Shown here: one piece after another, positions 51,169 through 58,671 of the stretch
Numbering within the stretch: position 1 is the stretch's first letter
Layout: every line of letters begins with the position of its first letter
Source of the DNA: an uncultured delta proteobacterium
GTDB lineage: Bacteria > Myxococcota_A > Polyangia > Polyangiales > Polyangiaceae
DNA length: 64,000 nucleotides
Reading direction: 5' to 3'
Assembly (NCBI GenBank): GCA_963764075.1
Contig: CAVXQZ010000002.1
Span: forward strand, 76,915-140,914
The notes under the pieces: generated by a model
Databases searched by the model: none
What the model was told of the DNA's origin: nothing
Seen by the model: only the letters and a program-made list of their open reading frames with translations
Program-made: the position numbers and the translations under genes

Positions 51169-51416
51169 GGTGGGAAGCTGCGCTCCTTCCCGCGGCCAAG
51201 CGCCGCGGCGGAGCGTGAACAAGGATGAAACGCGAGGGCGCCGAGAAGTCGTCTAGGGCAGCGCCGTCGAGCGGCTCGCGATAGCGAGCGCCATCGCCGA
51301 AGGCGATTGCTCGTATCTCGACGGCGGTGCACTGGCGCCCCCCGCCACCGTTTGCTGCCTCGTGGCGGAGGGGGTGGTATCGTAGCGAGATTGCCTCTCC
51401 CTCCCGACGCCGCCAC

Positions 51417-52718
51417 ATGAGAACAGTGAGGCTCGCGGGGCCACTCGCATCGTGCGCCCTAGGGGTCGCGGCAGCGTGCGGTGCGGGCGATGCCACCTCG
51501 GGAAACGGCGACGCCGGCAGTGCGGGCGATGCCATCTCGGGAAACGGCAATGACGGCGGTGCCCGTGGCGCCATGTCCAGTGACGCGGCGATCTTCGCAG
51601 ATTCTTCCGAGGCAGGCGACGACGAAGCCGCGATGGACTCGGGAGTTCGGGAGACGGCGATTGCTGTGTCCACGGGCGCTACCACTGTTTGCGCGCTCAC
51701 GTCGAGCGGCGGAGTCGAGTGCTGGGGCTTCCAGCTCGGAAGCGCCGCGACGGGGACATTCCGCTCGGTACGCGAGCCCATCGCTGGCCTCGAGAGCGGC
51801 GTGGCGGCCATATCCGTGGGTGCGGTTTCCGCGTGCGCACTCACGACAGCCGGAGCGGTCGAGTGCTGGGGTGACAACACGAACGGTTTGCTCGGGAACG
51901 ATTCGGTGGATGGTTCGAGCACGGTTCCCGTACCCGTCGGCGGTCTCGCAGGTGCCGTGACGGCTATCTCCGTCGGACAATCTTCCGCCTGCGCCCTCAC
52001 GGCGAGCGGAGCGGTCGAGTGCTGGGGAGACAACACGAGCGGTTTGCTCGGGAACGACTCGGTGGATGGTTCGAGCACGGTTCCCGTACCGGTCAGCGGC
52101 ATCGCGAGCGGCGTGACAGCCGTTTCTGTCGGGCAGTCCTTCGCATGCGCACTCGCAAGCGGCGGAGCCCTGTGCTGGGGCAGCAACTATCCGTCTGGCC
52201 TCGGGAGCAACTCGGCGGCCTCCGGCACCGCGGTTCTTCCCATGCCCGTCACCGGACTCGGGGCGGGCGTCACCGCGATCGTCGTGGGCGGCACCTCCGG
52301 CTGCGCCCTTGTCGAAAGCGGAGGAGTCCAGTGCTGGGGAACCATCACGCAAGTCGGCACGTTCGTGAGCGTTCCGGACATTCCCGTGCCGGTCACGGGT
52401 TTGTCGAACGGTGCGACCTCCTTGGCCGTAGGAGGTCAATTCGCCTGCGCTCTGAGCGCGAGCGGAGTCCAGTGCTGGGGCGACACGCCCGTTTTGGGCG
52501 CCGAGTTTCCGACTTACCCTCCCGTGGCCGTCGCGGGACTCCCGGGCCCCGTGAAGGCCCTCTCGGCGGGACCGTCCACGGCGTGTGCGCTCATGGCGAG
52601 CGGAGGGATAGAGTGCTGGGGGGACAATTCGAGCGGTCAGCTCGGGAACGGCTCCGCCGTAGATTGGAGTTCGGTTCCAGTTGCGGTGACGGGGTTCGCC
52701 GGCGCGAACAAGCCGTGA
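51417..52718 (+). CDS. RCC1-repeat (beta-propeller) secreted lipoprotein
   Basis: Lipobox LGVAAACGAG. At least seven blades of the type ACALTxxGxVECWGDNxxGQLG. Confidence 0.85.
   Translation: MRTVRLAGPLASCALGVAAACGAGDATSGNGDAGSAGDAISGNGNDGGARGAMSSDAAIFADSSEAGDDEAAMDSGVRETAIAVSTGATTVCALTSSGGVECWGFQLGSAATGTFRSVREPIAGLESGVAAISVGAVSACALTTAGAVECWGDNTNGLLGNDSVDGSSTVPVPVGGLAGAVTAISVGQSSACALTASGAVECWGDNTSGLLGNDSVDGSSTVPVPVSGIASGVTAVSVGQSFACALASGGALCWGSNYPSGLGSNSAASGTAVLPMPVTGLGAGVTAIVVGGTSGCALVESGGVQCWGTITQVGTFVSVPDIPVPVTGLSNGATSLAVGGQFACALSASGVQCWGDTPVLGAEFPTYPPVAVAGLPGPVKALSAGPSTACALMASGGIECWGDNSSGQLGNGSAVDWSSVPVAVTGFAGANKP
51852..52090 (+). repeat. near-identical 83-nt segments 156 bp apart (a recent blade duplication inside the RCC1 gene)
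   Basis: 51852-51934 and 52008-52090 differ at 3 positions. Confidence 0.9.
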
Positions 52719-52747
52719 CCGCGGGCACCAAAGTCGAGGAATGCGTC

Positions 52748-53836
52748 ATGGGGTGGACAAGCCCGAAACGAGTACGACAACTGGGATTGGTCGCGTCCGT
52801 ATGGAGCGCACTCGCGTGCGGCGGGAACGACGCCGTCTTGCGATCCGGTGATGCGGGAGCGTCCGACGACGATCGGTTGCGTGGAAGCACGGGCGGGCAA
52901 GCTGCGGATTCTGGCGCGGCCGGAGCCGACGCGGTCGGCGCAACCCATCCCACCAGCCTAGCCCCCGCCGACGCTTCCGACTCGGGCGACACCGCAAATA
53001 CGTCGTGCGCCGGTCCTCTGACGTTCGCGGACCCCGACGTGGAGACCGTCGTGCGGCTGGGCATCGGGCTCCCGAACGGGCCGATCCATGAGGCCGATGT
53101 GGTGGGTCTTACCGACTTGAACTTCGAAACCGTGTTTGCTGTTGGGGGAAATGTGCTGTGTCCTCCCGACGGGGGCCAGGAAAACGGCGGCTGTACCGAG
53201 TACCCGAGTACACCTCAGGCCGACGGCTATATTACGTCGCTGCTCGGCGTGGAGTGCCTCCCCAACGTGCGCTCGGTCGAAGTCGATCCCTTCTTTCTGG
53301 ACCTCACGCCGCTTGCGGCTCTTCCGAACCTCGCCACCATTTCTTTCGGTCCGACCGAAGAGTCCAGTTTTCCTCAATTGCCTCAAGTCACGGCGCTCTA
53401 CGCGTACATCGAGGGCACCACGGCAGCGATCTTGTTGGCGATGCCCTCGCTGCGATCGCTGGAATTGGCCGGCGCCGTCGACTTAAGTTCGAGTTCGGCC
53501 AGTTGGGCGCTCTGGGCGCTGACGGGTCTCAGAAGGCTCAGCGTACCGAGGAGCGGGCTCGTCAACACGGTCCCTCTATCTCACCTGACCAATCTGACGG
53601 ACGTGGATCTCAGCGGAAATCAGATTCAGGACATTTCAGAGCTAGCGATGCTCCCTGCGCTCCGGAGCCTCGACTTGAGCAACAACCAGATTACCGATCT
53701 CGCACCCCTGGTCGCAAACCCGGGCCTCGGCTTCGGAAGCGCCATCGATGTGACGGGCAATGCATTGGACTGTACGAGTCAAAACATCGCGACGCTGCGG
53801 GCGAGAGGCGTCACGGTACTCACGGACTGCCCGTGA
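52748..53836 (+). CDS. leucine-rich-repeat secreted lipoprotein
   Basis: Lipobox WSALACGG. C-terminal LRRs LTNLTDVDLSGNQIQDISELAMLPALRSLDLSNNQITDLAPLV. Start taken at the internal ATG at 52748. Confidence 0.8.
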   Translation: MGWTSPKRVRQLGLVASVWSALACGGNDAVLRSGDAGASDDDRLRGSTGGQAADSGAAGADAVGATHPTSLAPADASDSGDTANTSCAGPLTFADPDVETVVRLGIGLPNGPIHEADVVGLTDLNFETVFAVGGNVLCPPDGGQENGGCTEYPSTPQADGYITSLLGVECLPNVRSVEVDPFFLDLTPLAALPNLATISFGPTEESSFPQLPQVTALYAYIEGTTAAILLAMPSLRSLELAGAVDLSSSSASWALWALTGLRRLSVPRSGLVNTVPLSHLTNLTDVDLSGNQIQDISELAMLPALRSLDLSNNQITDLAPLVANPGLGFGSAIDVTGNALDCTSQNIATLRARGVTVLTDCP

Positions 53837-53933
53837 TGGGCCGCGCCGCTGTCCCGTCGGATCGGAATGAGCGTCCGGTGCGCCCTCTCGAGAGCGGCCG
53901 CCTCGCCTGCCACTTCGTGTACCCTCCCGGGGC

Positions 53934-54809
53934 ATGACTCCCCGGAGCCGTGCAAAGACGCCGGACGTAGCTCCTGAAGAGCTCGAGCGGGTCGTGCGCG
54001 AGGCAGCGCGCGGCGCGGCGGGTCTCACGAAGACCGCACTCCGCAAGCGGGTACCGGTCTCGTACCAGCGCCCCGCCAAGCACGTGGACGCCGCGATCGA
54101 CGCCCTCGTGCGAACTGGAGCCATGTTCCTCCTCGAGGAATCGAAGGGGGCGCTCTATTTCGAACACGATCCGCTCGCGCACCTCGACGGTCTCGTTCGC
54201 GAGCGGCTCTCGACACCGCGGACCCAGCGGGCGCTCAAGGCCTGGGTCGGTGAGGTCGCGCCCGGGTACGACGTCGCGTTCGACGGGTGGTTCAAGCGCG
54301 CAACGAACGGTGCCGTTCTTTACGAGCAGAGCCCACTCCCCCGGTCGAAAGCGAAACGCTTCGGTCGAGAACCCGAACCGGTGGACGTTGCCGCGCTGCT
54401 CTCCCCGGTCATCAAGTCGTTGCGCGCCACGCTGAGGAAACTCGACGCGAAGCGCGTCCCGCGCCAGCGGGTCCGCGAGGTGCTCCTCGCTGCGCTCGAA
54501 TCGTCCGGGGCAGATTGGCACGCGAACGGCGAAAAGGACGACGACCGCTCCCGTTTCGTCGCGGCTCTCGATCGGCTGGCCGCCGACGACCCCGCGACCG
54601 CGCTCCTTTCCATTCGCGCCCTGCGCCGTCGCCTGTCGCTCGACAAGAAGGCGTTCGACGATCTCGCTCTCGATCTCGCCCACGAAGGGGTCGTGGAGCT
54701 TCATTTTCACGACTATCCTGCCTCGCTCCCCGACTCGGAACGCGCAGAGCTCGTTGTGGACGCGAAGGGAACGCACTACGTCGGCATCACGCCGAGGGCG
54801 AGACCATGA
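53934..54809 (+). CDS. gene A of the candidate system: hypothetical protein with two winged-helix-like segments
   Basis: 291 aa. N-terminal segment GLTKTALRKRVPVSYQRPAKHVDAAIDALVRTGAMFLLEE and C-terminal segment LLSIRALRRRLSLDKKAFDDLALDLAHEGVVELHFHDY. The stop overlaps the start of gene B. Confidence 0.6.
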   Translation: MTPRSRAKTPDVAPEELERVVREAARGAAGLTKTALRKRVPVSYQRPAKHVDAAIDALVRTGAMFLLEESKGALYFEHDPLAHLDGLVRERLSTPRTQRALKAWVGEVAPGYDVAFDGWFKRATNGAVLYEQSPLPRSKAKRFGREPEPVDVAALLSPVIKSLRATLRKLDAKRVPRQRVREVLLAALESSGADWHANGEKDDDRSRFVAALDRLAADDPATALLSIRALRRRLSLDKKAFDDLALDLAHEGVVELHFHDYPASLPDSERAELVVDAKGTHYVGITPRARP

Positions 54810-56755
54810 GCGGACTCGCAGCTCTTCCAAACCCGTTTCGCGACAACGTGGTCCAGGACGCGTGGCAGGCGACGGTCGACCTACCCGAAATCCACGCCGG
54901 CGCGTTCGACGCCTGCCTGGCCGGAATCGACTGCGCCTCCCGCGGTGTGCCGGACTCGCTCCTCATTTACGGCGTCGCGGGGTCGGGCAAAACGCACCTT
55001 CTCGGGCGCCTACAGCGGCACCTCACGGACACCGCACGAAGTGCGCCCGACGCCGTCCTCCGGTGCGTGTTCAGCTCGATACGCCTCCAGACGACGCGTG
55101 ACCTGCTCTGGCAGCACCTGCGCCGACGGTTCGCCGCCGACCTCATGCGCCGTGAGCAAGGGTTGACGCAGCTCCAGAGGCTCGTCGCTCACCAGCTTGC
55201 CGTTTCGGACGGGCACGGCCCCCGCGCCGGGATCCTGGAGCTACGGGTCCTTCGCGTGGAAGACGAGCCGACGCTCCTTCAACGGCTGCACGACGTCGGC
55301 GTGCGCCTCGGACTGCCGCGCGACCTCGCGATTGCCCTCGAACACCTCGTTTTGAACCGGAATGTGCGCGACGCGTCTGCGTGGCTCGCGGGCGAGAGCC
55401 TGCCCGAACAAGTCGCAGCGGCGCTCGGGCTCGGCGCCGAAGCCGACGAAGATCGCGAGCACGTCGCGCACCGGGTCGTGACCGCGCTCTGTCGGCTGGC
55501 CGGAGGAACGCTGCCCATCGTCTTCTGCTTCGATCAGGTCGAGTCGCTCCAGCGAACGCGGCACGACGACGAAGCGTTCTTCGCGTTCGGGCGCATGGCC
55601 TCGGATCTCTGCGACTCCGATCCGAACGTGTTCCTGATCACGTGCTTGCAGTCCGCGCTCCTCGAACCCTTTCGCGACGCGATCCGGCGATCCGACTGGG
55701 AGCGGATCGCGCGCCGGAGCGTGGCGCTCGATCACCTCACGCCGGTCCAGGTCGAGAAGCTCGTACGGGTGCGTTTGGAGGCGCACACCGAGCTCGCGAG
55801 CCTGCGCGCGAAGCGCTCGCGGGAGCCGTTCTACCCGCTCGAGGCACCCTTCGTCGCCCAGCTCGCGCTCGAGTCGCCTTGTGTCGCGCGGCGTGTCCTC
55901 GCGCTCGCGGCCCGGGAGTTCGAATCGAAGCAGCTCGGGCGACGCCCGTCAGGAACACGCCCGGTCGCGGAGTTCCTGGCACGCGAGCTCGAAGACCGCA
56001 TCCAGAAGCGTTTGCCGGCGCTGAAGCCGTCGGAGACCACGGGTATCTTGGCGCGCGGCGCCTCGCTCCTTGCCGAGCTGGCCGGCGCGGAGCTCACGGA
56101 GCAAGATCCGCGGCCGGCGGACGTCCTTCTCGCGGGGCCGCGTCGCGTCGCGCTTTCGTTCCGCAACGAGATCGACGGACGAAGTCTCACGCCGAAGCTC
56201 AAAGGCCTGCTCGCGCAGCCCTCCGGCAAGGGAGACCCGGCGCTCGTCATTCTGCGCGACCCGCGCCTTGCGCTCTCGAAAGCCGCCGCGCGGGCGCGCG
56301 AGCACCTCGACTCGCTTCGGGCGCGTGGGGCCAGCTTCGTCGAGCCGACCGTCGAGGCGCTCGCCGCGCTCGACGCTCTGGCCTCGATCCTGGGAGACGC
56401 AAAGTCCGGCGATCTAGCCGACGACGAGGCGCCGCCGCTCGATGCGGGCGCCGTATTGACGTGGGTACGAAGCCTTCGCTCGCATGCGCTTCTCGAGCCC
56501 GTCGGAGAGCTCGTGGCGTCCATTTTCGGAGGCGCTCCCGCCGGCCCCGACGACCTGGAGACGGACCTCGCTTTGCTTCTGAGCCAGGAGCACGTCATCG
56601 AGGCTGCGTCGGCGGCGAAGGTCTTGGGGGTGGAGGTCGAGGCCGTGCTCCGGTGCGGGCGCCAAGCGACGGCGCACTGTCTCGTGCTCGAAGGGCCACC
56701 GCCGGTCTTGCTCGACGTGTCCGGCGTCCCGCTGGACGGGCAGCAGCGCTCATGA
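54806..56755 (+). CDS. gene B: ORC/Cdc6/DnaA-like AAA+ (P-loop) NTPase with a long helical C-terminal region
   Basis: 649 aa. NPFRDNVV...LLIYGVAGSGKTHLLGRL (Walker A, aa 56-63), PIVFCFDQVE (Walker B-like, aa 238-246), SVALDHLTPVQVEKLVRVRL lid-like motif. ATGA overlaps at both ends. Confidence 0.7.
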   Translation: MSGLAALPNPFRDNVVQDAWQATVDLPEIHAGAFDACLAGIDCASRGVPDSLLIYGVAGSGKTHLLGRLQRHLTDTARSAPDAVLRCVFSSIRLQTTRDLLWQHLRRRFAADLMRREQGLTQLQRLVAHQLAVSDGHGPRAGILELRVLRVEDEPTLLQRLHDVGVRLGLPRDLAIALEHLVLNRNVRDASAWLAGESLPEQVAAALGLGAEADEDREHVAHRVVTALCRLAGGTLPIVFCFDQVESLQRTRHDDEAFFAFGRMASDLCDSDPNVFLITCLQSALLEPFRDAIRRSDWERIARRSVALDHLTPVQVEKLVRVRLEAHTELASLRAKRSREPFYPLEAPFVAQLALESPCVARRVLALAAREFESKQLGRRPSGTRPVAEFLARELEDRIQKRLPALKPSETTGILARGASLLAELAGAELTEQDPRPADVLLAGPRRVALSFRNEIDGRSLTPKLKGLLAQPSGKGDPALVILRDPRLALSKAAARAREHLDSLRARGASFVEPTVEALAALDALASILGDAKSGDLADDEAPPLDAGAVLTWVRSLRSHALLEPVGELVASIFGGAPAGPDDLETDLALLLSQEHVIEAASAAKVLGVEVEAVLRCGRQATAHCLVLEGPPPVLLDVSGVPLDGQQRS

Positions 56756-58671
56756 CGGTCCACCTTTCGGTTGCAGACGTCCGCGCTGCGCTCGCCGAGG
56801 CCTCGGGCGCAGACGGTGCCGGCAAGGGGGAGCCTGCGACGGCGCTCCTCGGGCGCCTCTTCCACGATACGTTCGCAGACCTCGTCGGCGTCGATCCCCT
56901 CCGGAGCGGCCTGCGCGTGATCGTCGAGGGGAGCGCCGAGACCGGTCGCCGCAACGAACAGCTCGTGGAGCACACCTGGCAGCGCCTTCTCGCCCCACGC
57001 CTCCGCCGGAACGCCGCCGTGCTGCAGGACTCCGCCGCCGAGGTCATGACGCTTTGGCGAGCCACGAAGAACCTCGCCGCGTGGCTCTCGGGGATCGTCG
57101 CCGAGCTCGTCGCGCACAGCCCCGGGCTCAGCGCCCATTGGGAGCGCGTCGAGCCCTTGCTGCGAGCCGAAGTCCCTCTCCAATGCGAGATTCGCGAGCC
57201 GGGATGGAAGGAGTCCGTACGTCTCGTCGGGTACGCCGATTCCGTCCTGCGCGTCCCCGGACGCGAGGCCTTCTGCGCCATCGAGCTCAAGCTCGGTCGC
57301 GCGATGCCGGCGGTGGACCTGGGGCAAGCGGCCCTCTACTACGTGATGCTGGCCCGCTCGGCGCCGACACCGAAGAGCGACGCGCGAAGGTCGGGCCTCG
57401 CCATGGTCCGATTCTCTCCGGGCCTCGACGAACACGTCGTCGAGGCCGCGGCGCTCGGCGGCGCCGTCGAGCAGCTCGTGCAGCTCATCGGACGCCTCGC
57501 GGGCGTGCTGCCTGACCCCCGCGCGACGAATGCCGGTCACCTTGCAGGAACGGTCGCAGCGCCAGGGCCCGAGGCGGCCGACAAGTCGGGGCCGGACGAG
57601 CCTGACACGCCGTACGCGCAAATTGGCAAGCGGCTGGCGAGCGCGTATCGCGAGCACGGCGTCGGCGTCGAAATCGTCGGGCCGCCGCGCGTCGGCCCGC
57701 GCTTTCTCCGCTTCGAGGCGCGCCTCAGCACAGGGACGAAGCTCGACGGACTTCGCCGGAGGACGGCCGAAGTCCAGCATCGCCTCGCGCTTTCGTCGGA
57801 GCCGCTGATTGTCCAGGAGGGAGGACGCCTCTACGTCGATGTGGCGCGTCCCGACCCGGAGACCGTGCTGTTCTCGGCGATCGCGTCCGCGCTCCCGGCA
57901 GTGGATTCGGTCCGGGGCTCGGCGAAAGCCGTCATCGGCGTGGATCCGGGGCGCCGAATACGTTTCGCCGATCTGGCAAGCGCCGGGCGGTCGCACGTGC
58001 TGGCGGCGGGCACGACTGGCAGCGGCAAGAGCGAATGGCTCCGGATGATGCTCGCGAGCCTCATCGCGACCAACACGCCGGAGACGCTCCGCGTCGTTAC
58101 GCTCGACCCCAAGCTCGCCGCGTTCAACGACCTCGAAGGAAGCAAATTCCTCTGGAAAAACGACGCCTTCTGGATCCCGAACGGCCGGCCTGCGAGCGAG
58201 CTATTCGAGGAGCTCATCGAAGAAATGGAGCGCCGCTATCAGCTCACCCGTCAGGCCGGTGCCGACGATTTGGCTGCCTACGTCCAGAAGACGGGTCGGC
58301 CCCTCGCGCGCATCGTGTGCCTGTGCGACGAGTATTTCGCGCTGATATCGCAGAACAAGCAGGAGAAAGCCGCGATCGAACGCGCGGTGGCTCTCCTCGG
58401 CGCAAAAGCCCGAGCCGCGGGAATTCACCTGGTGCTCGCCACCCAACAGCCAAGCCGCGCGACCGTCACCGGCGCGATTCAGGCAAACTTGCCGTGTCGA
58501 GTTGCGCTCACGCTCTCGAGCCACATCGAGTCGTCCATGATTCTCGGCGTCTCGGGCGCCGAGCGGCTCACGGGTTCGGGCGACCTGCTCTACAAAGACT
58601 TCGGGGAACCTGTTCGTCTGCAGGCGCCATATCTCCCGGACGGGGAACGCCGCAGCTTGTTTCGGTCGTGA
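56752..58671 (+). CDS. gene C: RecB/Cas4-type PD-(D/E)xK nuclease domain fused to an FtsK/SpoIIIE-family DNA translocase ATPase
   Basis: 639 aa. Nuclease motifs: CEIRE (145-149), GYADS (D163), AIELK (E178, K180), QAALY (Q192, Y196). Motor motifs: AAGTTGSGKSE (K426), IVCLCDEY (D526-E527), HLVLATQQPS. No TM segments and no gamma domain. Confidence 0.75.
   Translation: MTVHLSVADVRAALAEASGADGAGKGEPATALLGRLFHDTFADLVGVDPLRSGLRVIVEGSAETGRRNEQLVEHTWQRLLAPRLRRNAAVLQDSAAEVMTLWRATKNLAAWLSGIVAELVAHSPGLSAHWERVEPLLRAEVPLQCEIREPGWKESVRLVGYADSVLRVPGREAFCAIELKLGRAMPAVDLGQAALYYVMLARSAPTPKSDARRSGLAMVRFSPGLDEHVVEAAALGGAVEQLVQLIGRLAGVLPDPRATNAGHLAGTVAAPGPEAADKSGPDEPDTPYAQIGKRLASAYREHGVGVEIVGPPRVGPRFLRFEARLSTGTKLDGLRRRTAEVQHRLALSSEPLIVQEGGRLYVDVARPDPETVLFSAIASALPAVDSVRGSAKAVIGVDPGRRIRFADLASAGRSHVLAAGTTGSGKSEWLRMMLASLIATNTPETLRVVTLDPKLAAFNDLEGSKFLWKNDAFWIPNGRPASELFEELIEEMERRYQLTRQAGADDLAAYVQKTGRPLARIVCLCDEYFALISQNKQEKAAIERAVALLGAKARAAGIHLVLATQQPSRATVTGAIQANLPCRVALTLSSHIESSMILGVSGAERLTGSGDLLYKDFGEPVRLQAPYLPDGERRSLFRS

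What the first reader, a model, noticed from the sequence alone, without database searches (positions are those of the whole stretch)
56752..58671. Single polypeptide combining a RecB/Cas4-like PD-(D/E)xK nuclease with a soluble FtsK/SpoIIIE motor
Seen: the first ~200 aa carry the ordered RecB-family motifs GRLFHDTF (aa 34-41), CEIRE (145-149), VGYADSVL (D163), AIELKLG (E178-x-K180) and GQAALYYV (Q192-x3-Y196), encoded around nt 57180-57350. There is no Cys4 cluster. aa ~290-639 are a canonical FtsK motor: GPRFLRFEARL, AAGTTGSGKSE with K426 (nt ~58009-58032), IVCLCDEYF (nt ~58320-58335), and HLVLATQQPS. The protein has no N-terminal membrane anchor and no C-terminal gamma (KOPS-reading) domain, so it is neither a divisome FtsK nor a typical conjugative coupling protein. 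Inference: a hexameric dsDNA pump carrying its own nuclease would degrade DNA as it translocates, analogous in logic to HerA-NurA or type I restriction HsdR.
Basis: partly seen in the sequence, partly recalled or inferred. Interest (0 to 1): 0.75.

Follow-up and report, generated by a model that had tools for sequence, protein, structure and literature searches.

The report
Nuclease-fused FtsK motor defence cassette
The gene really does encode a DNA-cutting domain fused to a soluble FtsK DNA pump, and it is the last gene of a mobile three-gene cassette of a type that a 2024 comparative-genomics paper predicted to destroy invading DNA but that nobody has tested.

Summary
Window 56752-58671 (+) encodes a 639-aa protein with three parts: a RecB/Cas4-like PD-(D/E)xK nuclease (aa 1-255) without an Fe-S cysteine cluster, a disordered linker (aa 257-284), and an FtsK alpha+beta motor (aa 287-639). 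It has no membrane anchor and no gamma domain. H38, E140, D163, E178, K180, Q192 and Y196, and Walker A and B, are conserved in relatives down to about 30% identity.

The gene is the last of a translationally coupled triad. A is a fast-evolving tandem winged-helix protein, B is an Orc1/Cdc6-fold AAA+ ATPase, and C is the nuclease-FtsK fusion. The order A-B-C recurs in Myxococcota, Planctomycetota, Acidobacteriota and other phyla, with unrelated, mostly housekeeping flanks. No relaxase or T4SS family recurs next to it.

This matches the 'Orc/CDC6 + REase + HerA/FtsK capture systems' predicted computationally in NAR 2024 (PMC10853773). I found no experimental work on them. My verdict is a new member of a known, predicted kind. 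The most likely role is ATP-dependent restriction of invading DNA, and that mechanism is inferred, not shown.

The parts
53916..58671 (+). Whole A-B-C cassette as delimited by comparison with a related genome
   Evidence: L005 (another Polyangiaceae MAG) aligns at 87.7% nt identity exactly over window 53916-58671, and its flanks are unrelated. No terminal inverted or direct repeats were found at the ends.
53934..54809 (+). Gene A: 291-aa fast-evolving tandem winged-helix (wHTH) protein, the presumed DNA or target recognition subunit
   Evidence: The single sequence has no Pfam, PADLOC or NCBIfam hit. A profile of 43 positional homologues hits the Hop2 winged helix (E 4e-5) and the SelB tandem winged helices (E 5e-5). 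SelB-wing_2, HTH_20, MarR_2 and related families hit members. Mean column identity is only 21%, with the C-terminal ~80 aa most conserved. Its stop overlaps the B start as ATGA.
54806..56755 (+). Gene B: 649-aa Orc1/Cdc6-fold AAA+ ATPase
   Evidence: AAA_16 and AAA_22 hits. AlphaFold model pLDDT 86.5, pTM 0.79. Top Foldseek hits are archaeal Orc1/Cdc6 (2v1u 1.8e-5, 2qby, 1fnn), then eukaryotic ORC/Cdc6, BrxC and TnsC. It lies directly upstream of C in nearly all loci that have upstream sequence.
54893..55735 (+). B AAA+ core (aa ~30-310), with Walker A K62 (54989-54991) and an unusual Walker B D243-Q244-V-E246 (55532-55543)
   Evidence: GxxGxGKTH, D243, Q244, E246, R300 and R362 are invariant in 44/44 B proteins across phyla.
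56081..56410 (+). B inserted alpha/beta domain (aa ~426-535) between the AAA+ lid and the C-terminal winged helix; candidate 'inactive REase' of the published description
   Evidence: The model has strands 429-431, 440-443, 447-452, 479-483 and 510-512 with helices between them. R484, D485, R487, D531, G535 and D536 are conserved, and there is no (D/E)xK. hhalign against C's nuclease shows no similarity (probability 0.4%), so its identity as a REase fold is not established here.
56444..56716 (+). B C-terminal helical and beta-hairpin region (aa ~547-637), a predicted winged helix as in Orc1/Cdc6
   Evidence: Helices 547-556, 561-574, 583-595, 600-607 and 611-620 with strands 597-599, 625-628 and 634-637. 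Foldseek alignments to Orc1/Cdc6 span 430-580 columns.
56752..58671 (+). Gene C: 639-aa nuclease-FtsK fusion (the finding)
56752..57516 (+). C nuclease domain (aa 1-255), RecB/Cas4-like PD-(D/E)xK. Catalytic codons: H38 56863-56865, E140 57169-57171, D163 57238-57240, E178 57283-57285, K180 57289-57291, Q192 57325-57327, Y196 57337-57339
   Evidence: PDDEXK_1 scores above the gathering threshold. The best PDB sequence hit is 4ic1 (E 0.2, not significant alone; I recall it, unchecked, as the S. solfataricus Cas4 SSO0001 structure), which aligns GRADA and E-x-K exactly. The model has strands 137-147, 155-167 and 174-181, helix 187-203, and strands 215-221 and 225-231, with pLDDT ~90.
57520..57603 (+). 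Flexible linker (aa 257-284)
   Evidence: pLDDT is below 50 over 257-284. The region is unconserved and variable in length in the family alignment.
57610..57891 (+). FtsK alpha domain (aa ~287-380)
   Evidence: FtsK_alpha hits 28/44 members (best 1.5e-6), though only weakly in the window protein (E 0.07). Foldseek alignments cover ~380 of ~392 residues of FtsK alpha+beta structures.
57919..58668 (+). FtsK beta (RecA-like motor) domain (aa ~390-639): Walker A K426 58027-58029, Walker B D526/E527 58327-58332, sensor Q565
   Evidence: FtsK_SpoIIIE E 2e-28. PDB FtsK 2iuu E 1.8e-56. K426 is conserved in 62/64, D526/E527 in 61/64, Q565 in 56/64 and R583 in 55/64.

Best explanation
Genes A, B and C form one self-contained, horizontally exchanged cassette. 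It belongs to the computationally predicted 'Orc/CDC6 - REase - HerA/FtsK capture' class of anti-invader systems.

Proposed working (inferred):
- A, the rapidly diverging tandem winged-helix protein, recognises a feature of foreign DNA or an invader nucleoprotein.
- B, the Orc1/Cdc6-like AAA+ protein, has an invariant P-loop and an atypical D-Q-x-E Walker B. It acts as an ATP-gated switch or loader that licenses the effector at that site.
- C assembles through its FtsK alpha/beta domains into a ring on double-stranded DNA.
- C pumps the DNA with ATP and cuts it with the RecB/Cas4-type nuclease domains, which hang on ~30-residue flexible tethers.
- No methyltransferase or other modification gene is in the cassette. 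Self/non-self discrimination must therefore come from A/B-dependent recognition or from DNA state (ends, replication, transfer or packaging intermediates) rather than from a cognate modification.

Shown here: the domain identities, intact and conserved catalytic motifs in both enzymatic domains of C and in the P-loop of B, the conserved A-B-C order with overlapping stop/start codons, the multi-phylum patchy distribution, and the variable flanks.

Inferred: ring formation, complex formation, DNA degradation and a defence role.
For: Architecture of C.

Catalytic residues are conserved to ~30% identity.

The nuclease subfamily is essentially always fused to FtsK:
- The search returned 152 representative clusters.
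- All 63 proteins of >=560 aa carry the domain at residues ~1-250 of a ~600-720 aa protein.
- The shorter ones look like fragments.

Partners:
- B has the Orc1/Cdc6 fold, with P-loop and DQxE invariant in 44/44.
- A is a tandem wHTH protein.

Cassette behaviour:
- ATGA overlaps at both junctions.
- The A-sized ORF -> B -> C order holds in ~45 loci from Myxococcota, Planctomycetota, Acidobacteriota, Gammaproteobacteria and Thermodesulfobacteriota.
- The cassette boundaries are sharp and the flanks unrelated even at 87.7% nt identity.
- There is a deletion remnant in L066 and two divergent copies in one MAG (L013 and L068).
- In a syntenic lineage, A (55-58%), B (51-57%) and C (71-73%) are less conserved than the flanking housekeeping genes (70-88%).

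Defence context:
- Occasional neighbours are defence or mobile genes: Azaca ZacA, Menshen NsnB, AAA_15/21, Uma2, YhcG, PIN, integrase, DDE transposase.
- The FtsK part matches the PADLOC models SspH (4e-43) and mad8 (5.5e-20), which are FtsK-type ATPases of known defence systems.

The published prediction describes the same domain set, including the FtsK-alpha-bearing version 'captured from cellular FtsK' and the optional fast-evolving multi-wHTH gene (PMC10853773).
Against: No experiment exists for this class; none was found.

The defence-island signal in my sample is weak. Most flanking genes are housekeeping.

A and B have no PADLOC hit.

The predicted 'inactive REase' insert of B could not be confirmed as a REase fold.

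Two loci (L037, L039) carry C without A/B, so C may act or persist alone.

The Q in place of the usual Walker B glutamate leaves B's hydrolytic competence uncertain.

Hexamer formation and coupling of nuclease to translocation are assumed by analogy with FtsK.
Confidence: 0.62

Rival explanations
1. The cassette is a DNA repair or chromosome-maintenance module. In this reading it would be a bacterial analogue of HerA-NurA or AddAB end resection, with B as loader and A as a DNA-structure sensor, serving the host genome rather than attacking invaders.
For: Flanking genes are mostly housekeeping. RecB/AddB-type nucleases and ring translocases cooperate in end resection (established knowledge of RecBCD, AddAB and HerA-NurA). 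In one Acidobacteriota-like lineage the cassette sits at a conserved syntenic position.
Against: The distribution is very patchy: about 65 of 185,579 GTDB species representatives carry the full-length fusion. Closely related cassettes sit in unrelated contexts and one shows a deletion remnant. One genome carries divergent paralogues. A has a mean column identity of 21%, and the triad is less conserved than its flanks. These features are atypical for core repair genes.
Confidence: 0.1
2. The cassette is the working part of a mobile genetic element. One version is a transfer or segregation module like the Streptomyces TraB dsDNA translocase. Another is a Tn7-like targeting module with a TnsC-like AAA+ and a TnsA-like REase. 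Either would serve the element's own spread or maintenance.
For: The FtsK domain weakly resembles TraB, TcpA and T4CP families. B's fold also matches TnsC (9g0f, E 3e-3). The cassette occupies different genomic contexts. One locus lies next to an integrase and a DDE transposase.
Against: No relaxase, T4SS, replication, integrase or DDE transposase gene is consistently linked. No terminal repeats flank the cassette. No full-length relative occurs in 72,556 plasmid or 50,697 phage records; 0 records cover >=80% of the query. The motor is closest to cellular FtsK, not to coupling proteins. An active, conserved RecB-type nuclease fused to the pump is hard to reconcile with intact DNA transfer.
Confidence: 0.1
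3. The system acts by abortive infection or self-targeting. On sensing infection through A/B, C degrades the host chromosome indiscriminately and kills or arrests the cell, rather than selectively restricting invader DNA.
For: There is no modification gene for self-marking in the cassette. STAND/Orc-like ATPases often act as infection-triggered switches in suicide systems (Kaur et al. 2020, PMC7159879, listed but not read; the statement rests on my own knowledge of that literature). In the DUF4297-HerA complex a HerA ring carries a nuclease partner (structures 8zir and 9c1m among the Foldseek hits; Cell Res 2024, PMC11291478, seen as title and abstract only).
Against: Nothing here distinguishes it from selective restriction. 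The fast evolution of a DNA-binding wHTH subunit fits target-specific recognition at least as well.
Confidence: 0.15

Closest known systems
Orc/CDC6 - REase - HerA/FtsK 'capture' systems (computational prediction; Nucleic Acids Res 2024;52:1005, PMC10853773)
   Same: It has the same domain set. These are an Orc/CDC6-type AAA+ with an extra domain before its C-terminal wHTH, an active REase-fold nuclease, a HerA/FtsK ATPase (here the version with the FtsK-alpha domain that the paper derives from cellular FtsK), and a rapidly evolving multi-wHTH gene. It also shows the same mobile, patchy neighbourhoods.
   Different: I could not see the paper's Figure 7 or dataset, so I cannot say whether this exact three-gene arrangement (REase fused N-terminally to FtsK-alpha/beta) or these lineages are listed. 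The insert of B was not verifiable as an inactive REase. The nuclease here is RecB/Cas4-like (PDDEXK_1), and I could not check whether that is one of the paper's 'two families'.
DndH / SspH of the DndFGH and SspFGH restriction modules
   Same: One polypeptide carries a REase-fold nuclease directly upstream of a HerA/FtsK ATPase. C's alpha+beta region matches the C-terminus of PADLOC SspH models (E 4e-43). The partner DndG is a triple-wHTH protein like A (PMC10853773).
   Different: DndH/SspH are ~1,500-1,750 aa proteins with about six further N-terminal domains (inactive SWI2/SNF2, TRDs, inactive methylase), which are absent here. The match does not extend into the nuclease. The partners DndF/SspF (kinase-like) are absent and are replaced here by an Orc/Cdc6 ATPase.
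Cellular DNA translocase FtsK (P. aeruginosa and E. coli motor structures 2iuu, 2ius, 6t8b)
   Same: The alpha and beta domains are about 30% identical, with TM 0.75-0.80 over the whole target. Walker A, Walker B, the sensor Q and the arginine are conserved.
   Different: There is no N-terminal membrane domain, no long linker and no gamma (KOPS-reading) domain. The N-terminus is a nuclease. The gene sits in an accessory cassette, not a division context.
DUF4297-HerA and HerA-NurA nuclease-ATPase machines
   Same: The logic is the same: a ring ATPase of the HerA/FtsK superfamily teamed with a nuclease that acts on dsDNA. DUF4297-HerA is an experimentally shown anti-phage system (PMC11291478).
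   Different: In those systems the nuclease is a separate subunit and the ATPase is of the HerA clade. Structural similarity is only weak (Foldseek E ~1e-6, TM ~0.25). Here the two are fused, the motor is of the FtsK clade, and there are two extra partners.
Cas4 / AddB / RecB nuclease domains (Pfam PDDEXK_1, Cas_Cas4)
   Same: The motifs appear in the same order: H ... D ... E-x-K ... Q-x3-Y. Pfam hits score above threshold. The best PDB sequence alignment is to 4ic1 (recalled as Cas4 SSO0001, not checked here) across the D and ExK strands.
   Different: There is no 4-Cys Fe-S cluster. A long helical insertion (aa ~28-135) lies between the His motif and the core sheet. The domain is not associated with CRISPR or with helicase-nuclease repair complexes.

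Membership tests
Orc/CDC6-REase-HerA/FtsK capture system (PMC10853773) | Orc/CDC6-family AAA+ ATPase encoded in the neighbourhood | tested here: met
   Gene B: the top Foldseek hits are archaeal Orc1/Cdc6 (2v1u 1.8e-5, 2qby, 1fnn), followed by ORC subunits. AAA_16/AAA_22 hits. P-loop invariant in 44/44.
Orc/CDC6-REase-HerA/FtsK capture system (PMC10853773) | Inactive REase domain inserted between the AAA+ core and the C-terminal wHTH of the Orc/CDC6 protein | tested here: inconclusive
   An alpha/beta domain of ~110 aa lies at exactly that position (aa ~426-535) and lacks a (D/E)xK motif. No sequence or profile search identified it as a REase fold. A domain-level structure search was not possible.
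Orc/CDC6-REase-HerA/FtsK capture system (PMC10853773) | Active REase-fold nuclease | tested here: met
   C aa 1-255: PDDEXK_1 scores above threshold and the catalytic H/D/ExK/QxxxY residues are conserved.
Orc/CDC6-REase-HerA/FtsK capture system (PMC10853773) | HerA/FtsK-clade ATPase (one subset with an FtsK-alpha domain) | tested here: met
   C aa 287-639: FtsK_alpha hits 28/44 and FtsK_SpoIIIE hits 44/44.
Orc/CDC6-REase-HerA/FtsK capture system (PMC10853773) | wHTH component; in a subset, a separate rapidly evolving 2-4 wHTH protein | tested here: met
   The gene A profile hits Hop2 and SelB winged helices (4e-5, 5e-5), and several wHTH Pfam families hit members. Mean column identity is 21%. 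The number of wHTH units (apparently three) was not confirmed by a structure.
Orc/CDC6-REase-HerA/FtsK capture system (PMC10853773) | Mobile, patchily distributed gene neighbourhood | tested here: met
   The cassette occurs in several phyla with unrelated flanks and has sharp boundaries at 87.7% nt identity.
Orc/CDC6-REase-HerA/FtsK capture system (PMC10853773) | Anti-invader (defence) function | not testable with these tools
   The function is predicted only in the source paper, and no experimental paper was found.
RecB/Cas4-like PD-(D/E)xK nucleases (Pfam PDDEXK_1) | Ordered catalytic motifs (His, Asp, Glu-x-Lys, Gln-x3-Tyr) on an alpha-beta-beta-beta-alpha-beta core | tested here: met
Cas4 sensu stricto | Four-cysteine Fe-S cluster | tested here: not met
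   Only C145 and C175 lie in the domain, and only C175 is conserved.
Divisome FtsK/SpoIIIE | N-terminal membrane domain and C-terminal gamma (KOPS-binding) domain | tested here: not met
   The maximum KD-19 hydropathy is 1.49. There is no FtsK_gamma hit, and the protein ends with the beta domain.
Conjugative coupling or transfer ATPases (T4CP, TraB, TcpA) | Linkage to relaxase, T4SS or plasmid transfer genes, and presence on plasmids or ICEs | tested here: not met
   No such family recurs among 232 flanking proteins or appears in six annotated contexts. No plasmid or phage record holds a full-length relative. Caveat: the census lists only the 25 most frequent families.
DndH/SspH | Eight-domain ~1,700-aa architecture with DndF/G (SspF/G) partners | tested here: not met
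   C is 639 aa. The PADLOC SspH match covers only the FtsK part (profile positions 1215-1554). A and B have no Dnd or Ssp hits.

The most novel reading that the evidence does not exclude
B is an ORC-like, ATP-gated ring loader for the FtsK-type translocase C. Directed by the hypervariable winged-helix protein A, it places the tethered-nuclease FtsK ring onto foreign DNA. The cassette would then be a modification-independent 'load-and-shred' restriction machine. That would be the first case of an initiator-type AAA+ loading an FtsK ring, and a mechanistic parallel to ORC/Cdc6 loading MCM. The atypical invariant D-Q-x-E Walker B would make B a slow, switch-like ATPase.
Probability: 0.25. Interest if true: 0.75.

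Novelty: new member of a known kind. Interest (0 to 1): 0.45.

Why it matters
If the cassette works as predicted, it is a compact and experimentally approachable example of a defence strategy so far known only from comparative genomics. In that strategy the cell's own chromosome-pumping motor is copied, stripped of its membrane anchor and sequence reader, and armed with a nuclease.

The cassette is only 4.7 kb and three genes, with clear catalytic residues to mutate. It could show three things:
- how an FtsK ring is targeted without its gamma domain;
- what an Orc/Cdc6-type ATPase does in bacterial immunity;
- how self DNA is spared without a modification enzyme.

It also extends the known host range of these systems to Polyangiaceae, Planctomycetota and Acidobacteriota. 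These phyla have large genomes, and their defence repertoires are poorly covered by current catalogues; PADLOC 2.0 recognises none of the three proteins as a system.

Tried and rejected
- PADLOC, Pfam and NCBIfam on A gave nothing, and on B gave only generic P-loop hits.
- A sequence profile of B against the PDB gave only P-loop noise. The fold search was needed to show Orc1/Cdc6.
- hhalign of B's inserted domain against C's nuclease found no similarity (probability <1%), so the 'inactive REase' label stays untested.
- The full-length Foldseek search of C is dominated by FtsK hits. The nuclease domain could not be searched on its own because models cannot be cropped. I substituted domain-only Pfam and PDB profile searches. 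The PDB hit, which I recall as Cas4, is only E 0.2.
- My first two home-made gene callers failed on these high-GC loci. A codon-usage caller with start optimisation was used instead.
- I searched for terminal inverted or direct repeats around the cassette and for sigma-70 promoters and terminators. Nothing rose above chance.
- I considered and rejected divisome FtsK, a conjugative coupling protein, Cas4 proper and DndH/SspH membership (see the membership tests).
- The supplementary data of PMC10853773 held here contain no accession lists, so I could not check whether these loci are in the authors' dataset.

Full report
**The observation**

The ORF at window 56752-58671 (+) is real. It translates to a 639-residue protein. 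Its ATG overlaps the stop codon of the upstream gene as ATGA.

- Pfam finds PDDEXK_1 over aa 28-232 (E 9.8e-7, 29.4 bits against a gathering score of 22) and FtsK_SpoIIIE over aa 390-568 (E 2e-28).
- In an alignment of 119 full-length homologues (55-99% identity), H38, D163, E178, K180, Q192, Y196 and the Walker A lysine are at least 98% conserved.
- In 64 much more divergent full-length representatives (27-56% identity in the N-terminal domain) the same residues are kept in 55-60 sequences. K426 is kept in 62, and D526/E527 in 61.
- One correction is needed. The 'CEIRE' stretch (aa 145-149) is variable, and the conserved upstream acidic residue is E140.
- The domain has only two cysteines, so there is no Cas4-type Fe-S cluster.
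- The maximum 19-residue hydropathy is 1.49, so no membrane helix is predicted.
- There is no FtsK gamma domain.

**Structure of C**

An AlphaFold2 model built on 44 homologues has mean pLDDT 84.3.

- Residues 137-231 form the strand-strand-strand-helix-strand core expected of the restriction-endonuclease fold. D163 lies in the second strand, E178 and K180 in the third, and Q192/Y196 in the following helix.
- Residues 257-284 are disordered (pLDDT below 50).
- The rest matches FtsK motor structures over their whole alpha+beta length. Foldseek gives 2iut, 6t8b and 2ius at E 1e-27 to 3e-29, with target TM-scores of 0.75-0.80.
- A sequence profile gives E 1.8e-56 to P. aeruginosa FtsK.
- FtsK_alpha is detected in 28 of 44 family members.
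- I could not crop the model to run a structure search on the nuclease domain alone. As a substitute, 18 divergent N-terminal domains were scanned on their own. PDDEXK_1 hits 12 (best 4e-11) and Cas_Cas4 hits 2.
- The best PDB sequence match, although only E 0.2, is 4ic1. I recall this entry as the Cas4 SSO0001 structure, which the tool output does not state. It aligns exactly across the Asp and Glu-x-Lys strands.

**The gene is not alone**

Two genes precede it on the same strand, and both junctions are ATGA overlaps.

Gene B (54806-56755, 649 aa):
- It gives only weak AAA_16/AAA_22 hits by sequence.
- Its model (pLDDT 86.5, pTM 0.79) finds archaeal Orc1/Cdc6 as the best structural relatives (2v1u 1.8e-5, 2qby, 1fnn). 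These are followed by eukaryotic ORC/Cdc6 subunits, BrxC and TnsC.
- After the AAA+ core and lid it has an extra alpha/beta domain (aa ~426-535) and then a helical/hairpin C-terminus typical of a winged helix.
- Its P-loop (GxxGxGKTH) is invariant in 44 of 44 B proteins from several phyla, and so is an unusual Walker B, D243-Q244-x-E246.

Gene A (53934-54809, 291 aa):
- It has no family hit as a single sequence.
- It evolves fast. The word-indexed search found only 10 relatives, against hundreds for B and C.
- A profile of 43 positional homologues hits the Hop2 winged helix (4e-5) and the tandem winged helices of SelB (5e-5). Members also hit SelB-wing_2, HTH_20, MarR_2 and other wHTH families.
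- The alignment suggests three wHTH-like units, with the C-terminal ~80 residues most conserved.

**Distribution and context**

- A scan of one genome per GTDB species found the full-length fusion in Polyangiaceae and other Myxococcota. It also found it in many Planctomycetota, including cultured strains SH248, SH139, Rhodopirellula sallentina and Aporhodopirellula aestuarii.
- It was also found in Acidobacteriota, a gammaproteobacterial MAG, a Thermodesulfobacteriota MAG and contigs labelled Heliobacteriaceae.
- In essentially every locus with enough upstream sequence the order is an A-sized ORF, then B, then C. Two loci (L037, L039) have C alone.
- An exhaustive HMMER search with the nuclease domain found 152 representative clusters. 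All 63 proteins of 560 aa or more carry the domain at the N-terminus of a 600-720 aa protein. This nuclease subfamily is therefore essentially dedicated to the fusion.
- Flanking genes are unrelated from locus to locus and mostly housekeeping. A census of 98 flanking proteins from 16 Myxococcota loci found no family in more than two.
- A census of 134 flanking proteins from about 30 other loci found no family in more than five. The recurring ones are ABC transporters and LolA from one syntenic lineage.
- No relaxase or T4SS family recurs.
- Some neighbours are defence or mobile genes: Azaca ZacA, Menshen NsnB, AAA_15/21 ATPases, Uma2, YhcG, PIN, an integrase and a DDE transposase.
- No plasmid or phage record contains a full-length relative.

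**Evidence that the cassette is the unit of exchange**

- A second Polyangiaceae MAG (L005) aligns to the window at 87.7% nucleotide identity from 53916, which is 18 nt before A's ATG, to 58671, which is C's stop codon. It aligns essentially nowhere else.
- A third MAG (L066) retains only the last 124 codons of C, fused to RCC1-like sequence. This looks like a deletion remnant.
- MAG GFS_4088 has two divergent copies (L013 and L068).
- In the one lineage where the cassette is syntenic, flanking housekeeping proteins are 70-88% identical. A is 55-58%, B is 51-57% and C is 71-73%.
- No terminal repeats or recombinase define the ends.

**Comparison with what is known**

A 2024 comparative-genomics paper on Dnd systems (PMC10853773) describes 'HerA/FtsK capture' systems. 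One class combines:
- an Orc/CDC6 AAA+ ATPase with an inactive REase inserted before its C-terminal wHTH;
- an active REase;
- a HerA/FtsK ATPase, one subset of which carries the FtsK-alpha domain and is judged to have been captured from cellular FtsK;

The authors propose that these systems intercept invading DNA during segregation, transfer or packaging and feed it to the nuclease. A 2026 paper from the same line of work reiterates this (PMC12839542).

The window cassette meets every testable defining feature except one. The insert in B is in the right place and lacks catalytic residues, but I could not show that it has a REase fold. I found no experimental study of this class.

Related but distinct systems:
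- DndH/SspH also fuse a REase to a HerA/FtsK domain, and C's motor matches PADLOC SspH models at 4e-43. They are about 1,700-residue, eight-domain proteins with different partners.
- DUF4297-HerA and HerA-NurA share the ring-ATPase-plus-nuclease logic, but with separate subunits and a HerA-clade motor.

**Mechanism**

The best-supported reading is as follows.
- A recognises a feature of foreign DNA.
- B acts as an ATP-dependent switch or loader.
- C forms an FtsK-type ring that pumps dsDNA past RecB/Cas4-type nuclease domains tethered by flexible linkers.

Because no modification enzyme is present, discrimination must lie in A/B recognition or in DNA state.

What is shown here is the domain identities, the intact catalytic sites, the operon coupling, the co-occurrence and the cassette-like behaviour. 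Ring formation, complex formation, DNA degradation and a defence role are inferences.

The rivals are listed with the tests that would separate them. They are a host repair module, a function serving a mobile element, and abortive self-degradation.

**Verdict**

It is not a new kind of system. It is a new, well-delimited member of a published but untested predicted class. I score interest at 0.45. A defence-systems specialist would not be surprised, but the cassette is compact, uncharacterised and raises concrete mechanistic questions.

Noticed in passing
L066:3301-3774 (matches window 52343-52443 and 58307-58671): In another Polyangiaceae MAG only the last 124 codons of gene C survive (90.7% nt identity). 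They directly abut RCC1-like sequence, which looks like a deletion that removed A, B and most of C.
   Followed up: partly
L031, L033 versus L035, L036: Contigs labelled Heliomicrobium/Heliobacteriaceae MAGs are syntenic with Acidobacteriota/Blastocatellia contigs. Flanking housekeeping proteins are 70-88% identical. This is probably mis-binning or mislabelling rather than cross-phylum transfer of a 20-kb block.
   Followed up: partly
window 55532-55543 (gene B aa 243-246): The Walker B of the Orc/Cdc6-like ATPase reads D-Q-V-E instead of the usual D-E. D243, Q244 and E246 are invariant in 44/44 homologues across phyla. This suggests a slow or switch-like ATPase.
   Followed up: partly
L037:9914-11881 and L039:10001-11848: Two loci (Planctomycetaceae, Acidobacteriota) carry a full-length gene C with no A or B within 10 kb upstream. 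They are orphan or decaying copies, or C can work alone.
   Followed up: no
L013 and L068 (both from MAG GFS_4088): One genome bin holds two divergent copies of the whole triad, with C at 55% and 60% identity to the window protein.
   Followed up: no
L074-L081 (Mycolicibacterium, Mycobacterium, Smaragdicoccus): Actinobacterial loci match only the FtsK alpha+beta part (aa ~290-636, ~31% identity) without the nuclease. Similar soluble FtsK-like genes occur in mycobacteriophages such as Omega and LittleE. This is a different soluble FtsK family.
   Followed up: no
window 51327-53836: Directly upstream of the cassette lie genes for an RCC1-repeat protein and a leucine-rich-repeat protein. The RCC1 gene has internal nucleotide repeats of about 64-73% identity. 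RCC1/LRR genes also neighbour the cassette in L085 and L087.
   Followed up: no
L008, L012 and other Myxococcota loci in alignment A4: A few cassettes sit beside known defence genes: Azaca ZacA (E 4e-121), Menshen NsnB (2e-89), and AAA_15/AAA_21 Gabija/PARIS-like ATPases. The tool did not report which loci carry them, so the loci named here are a guess.
   Followed up: no
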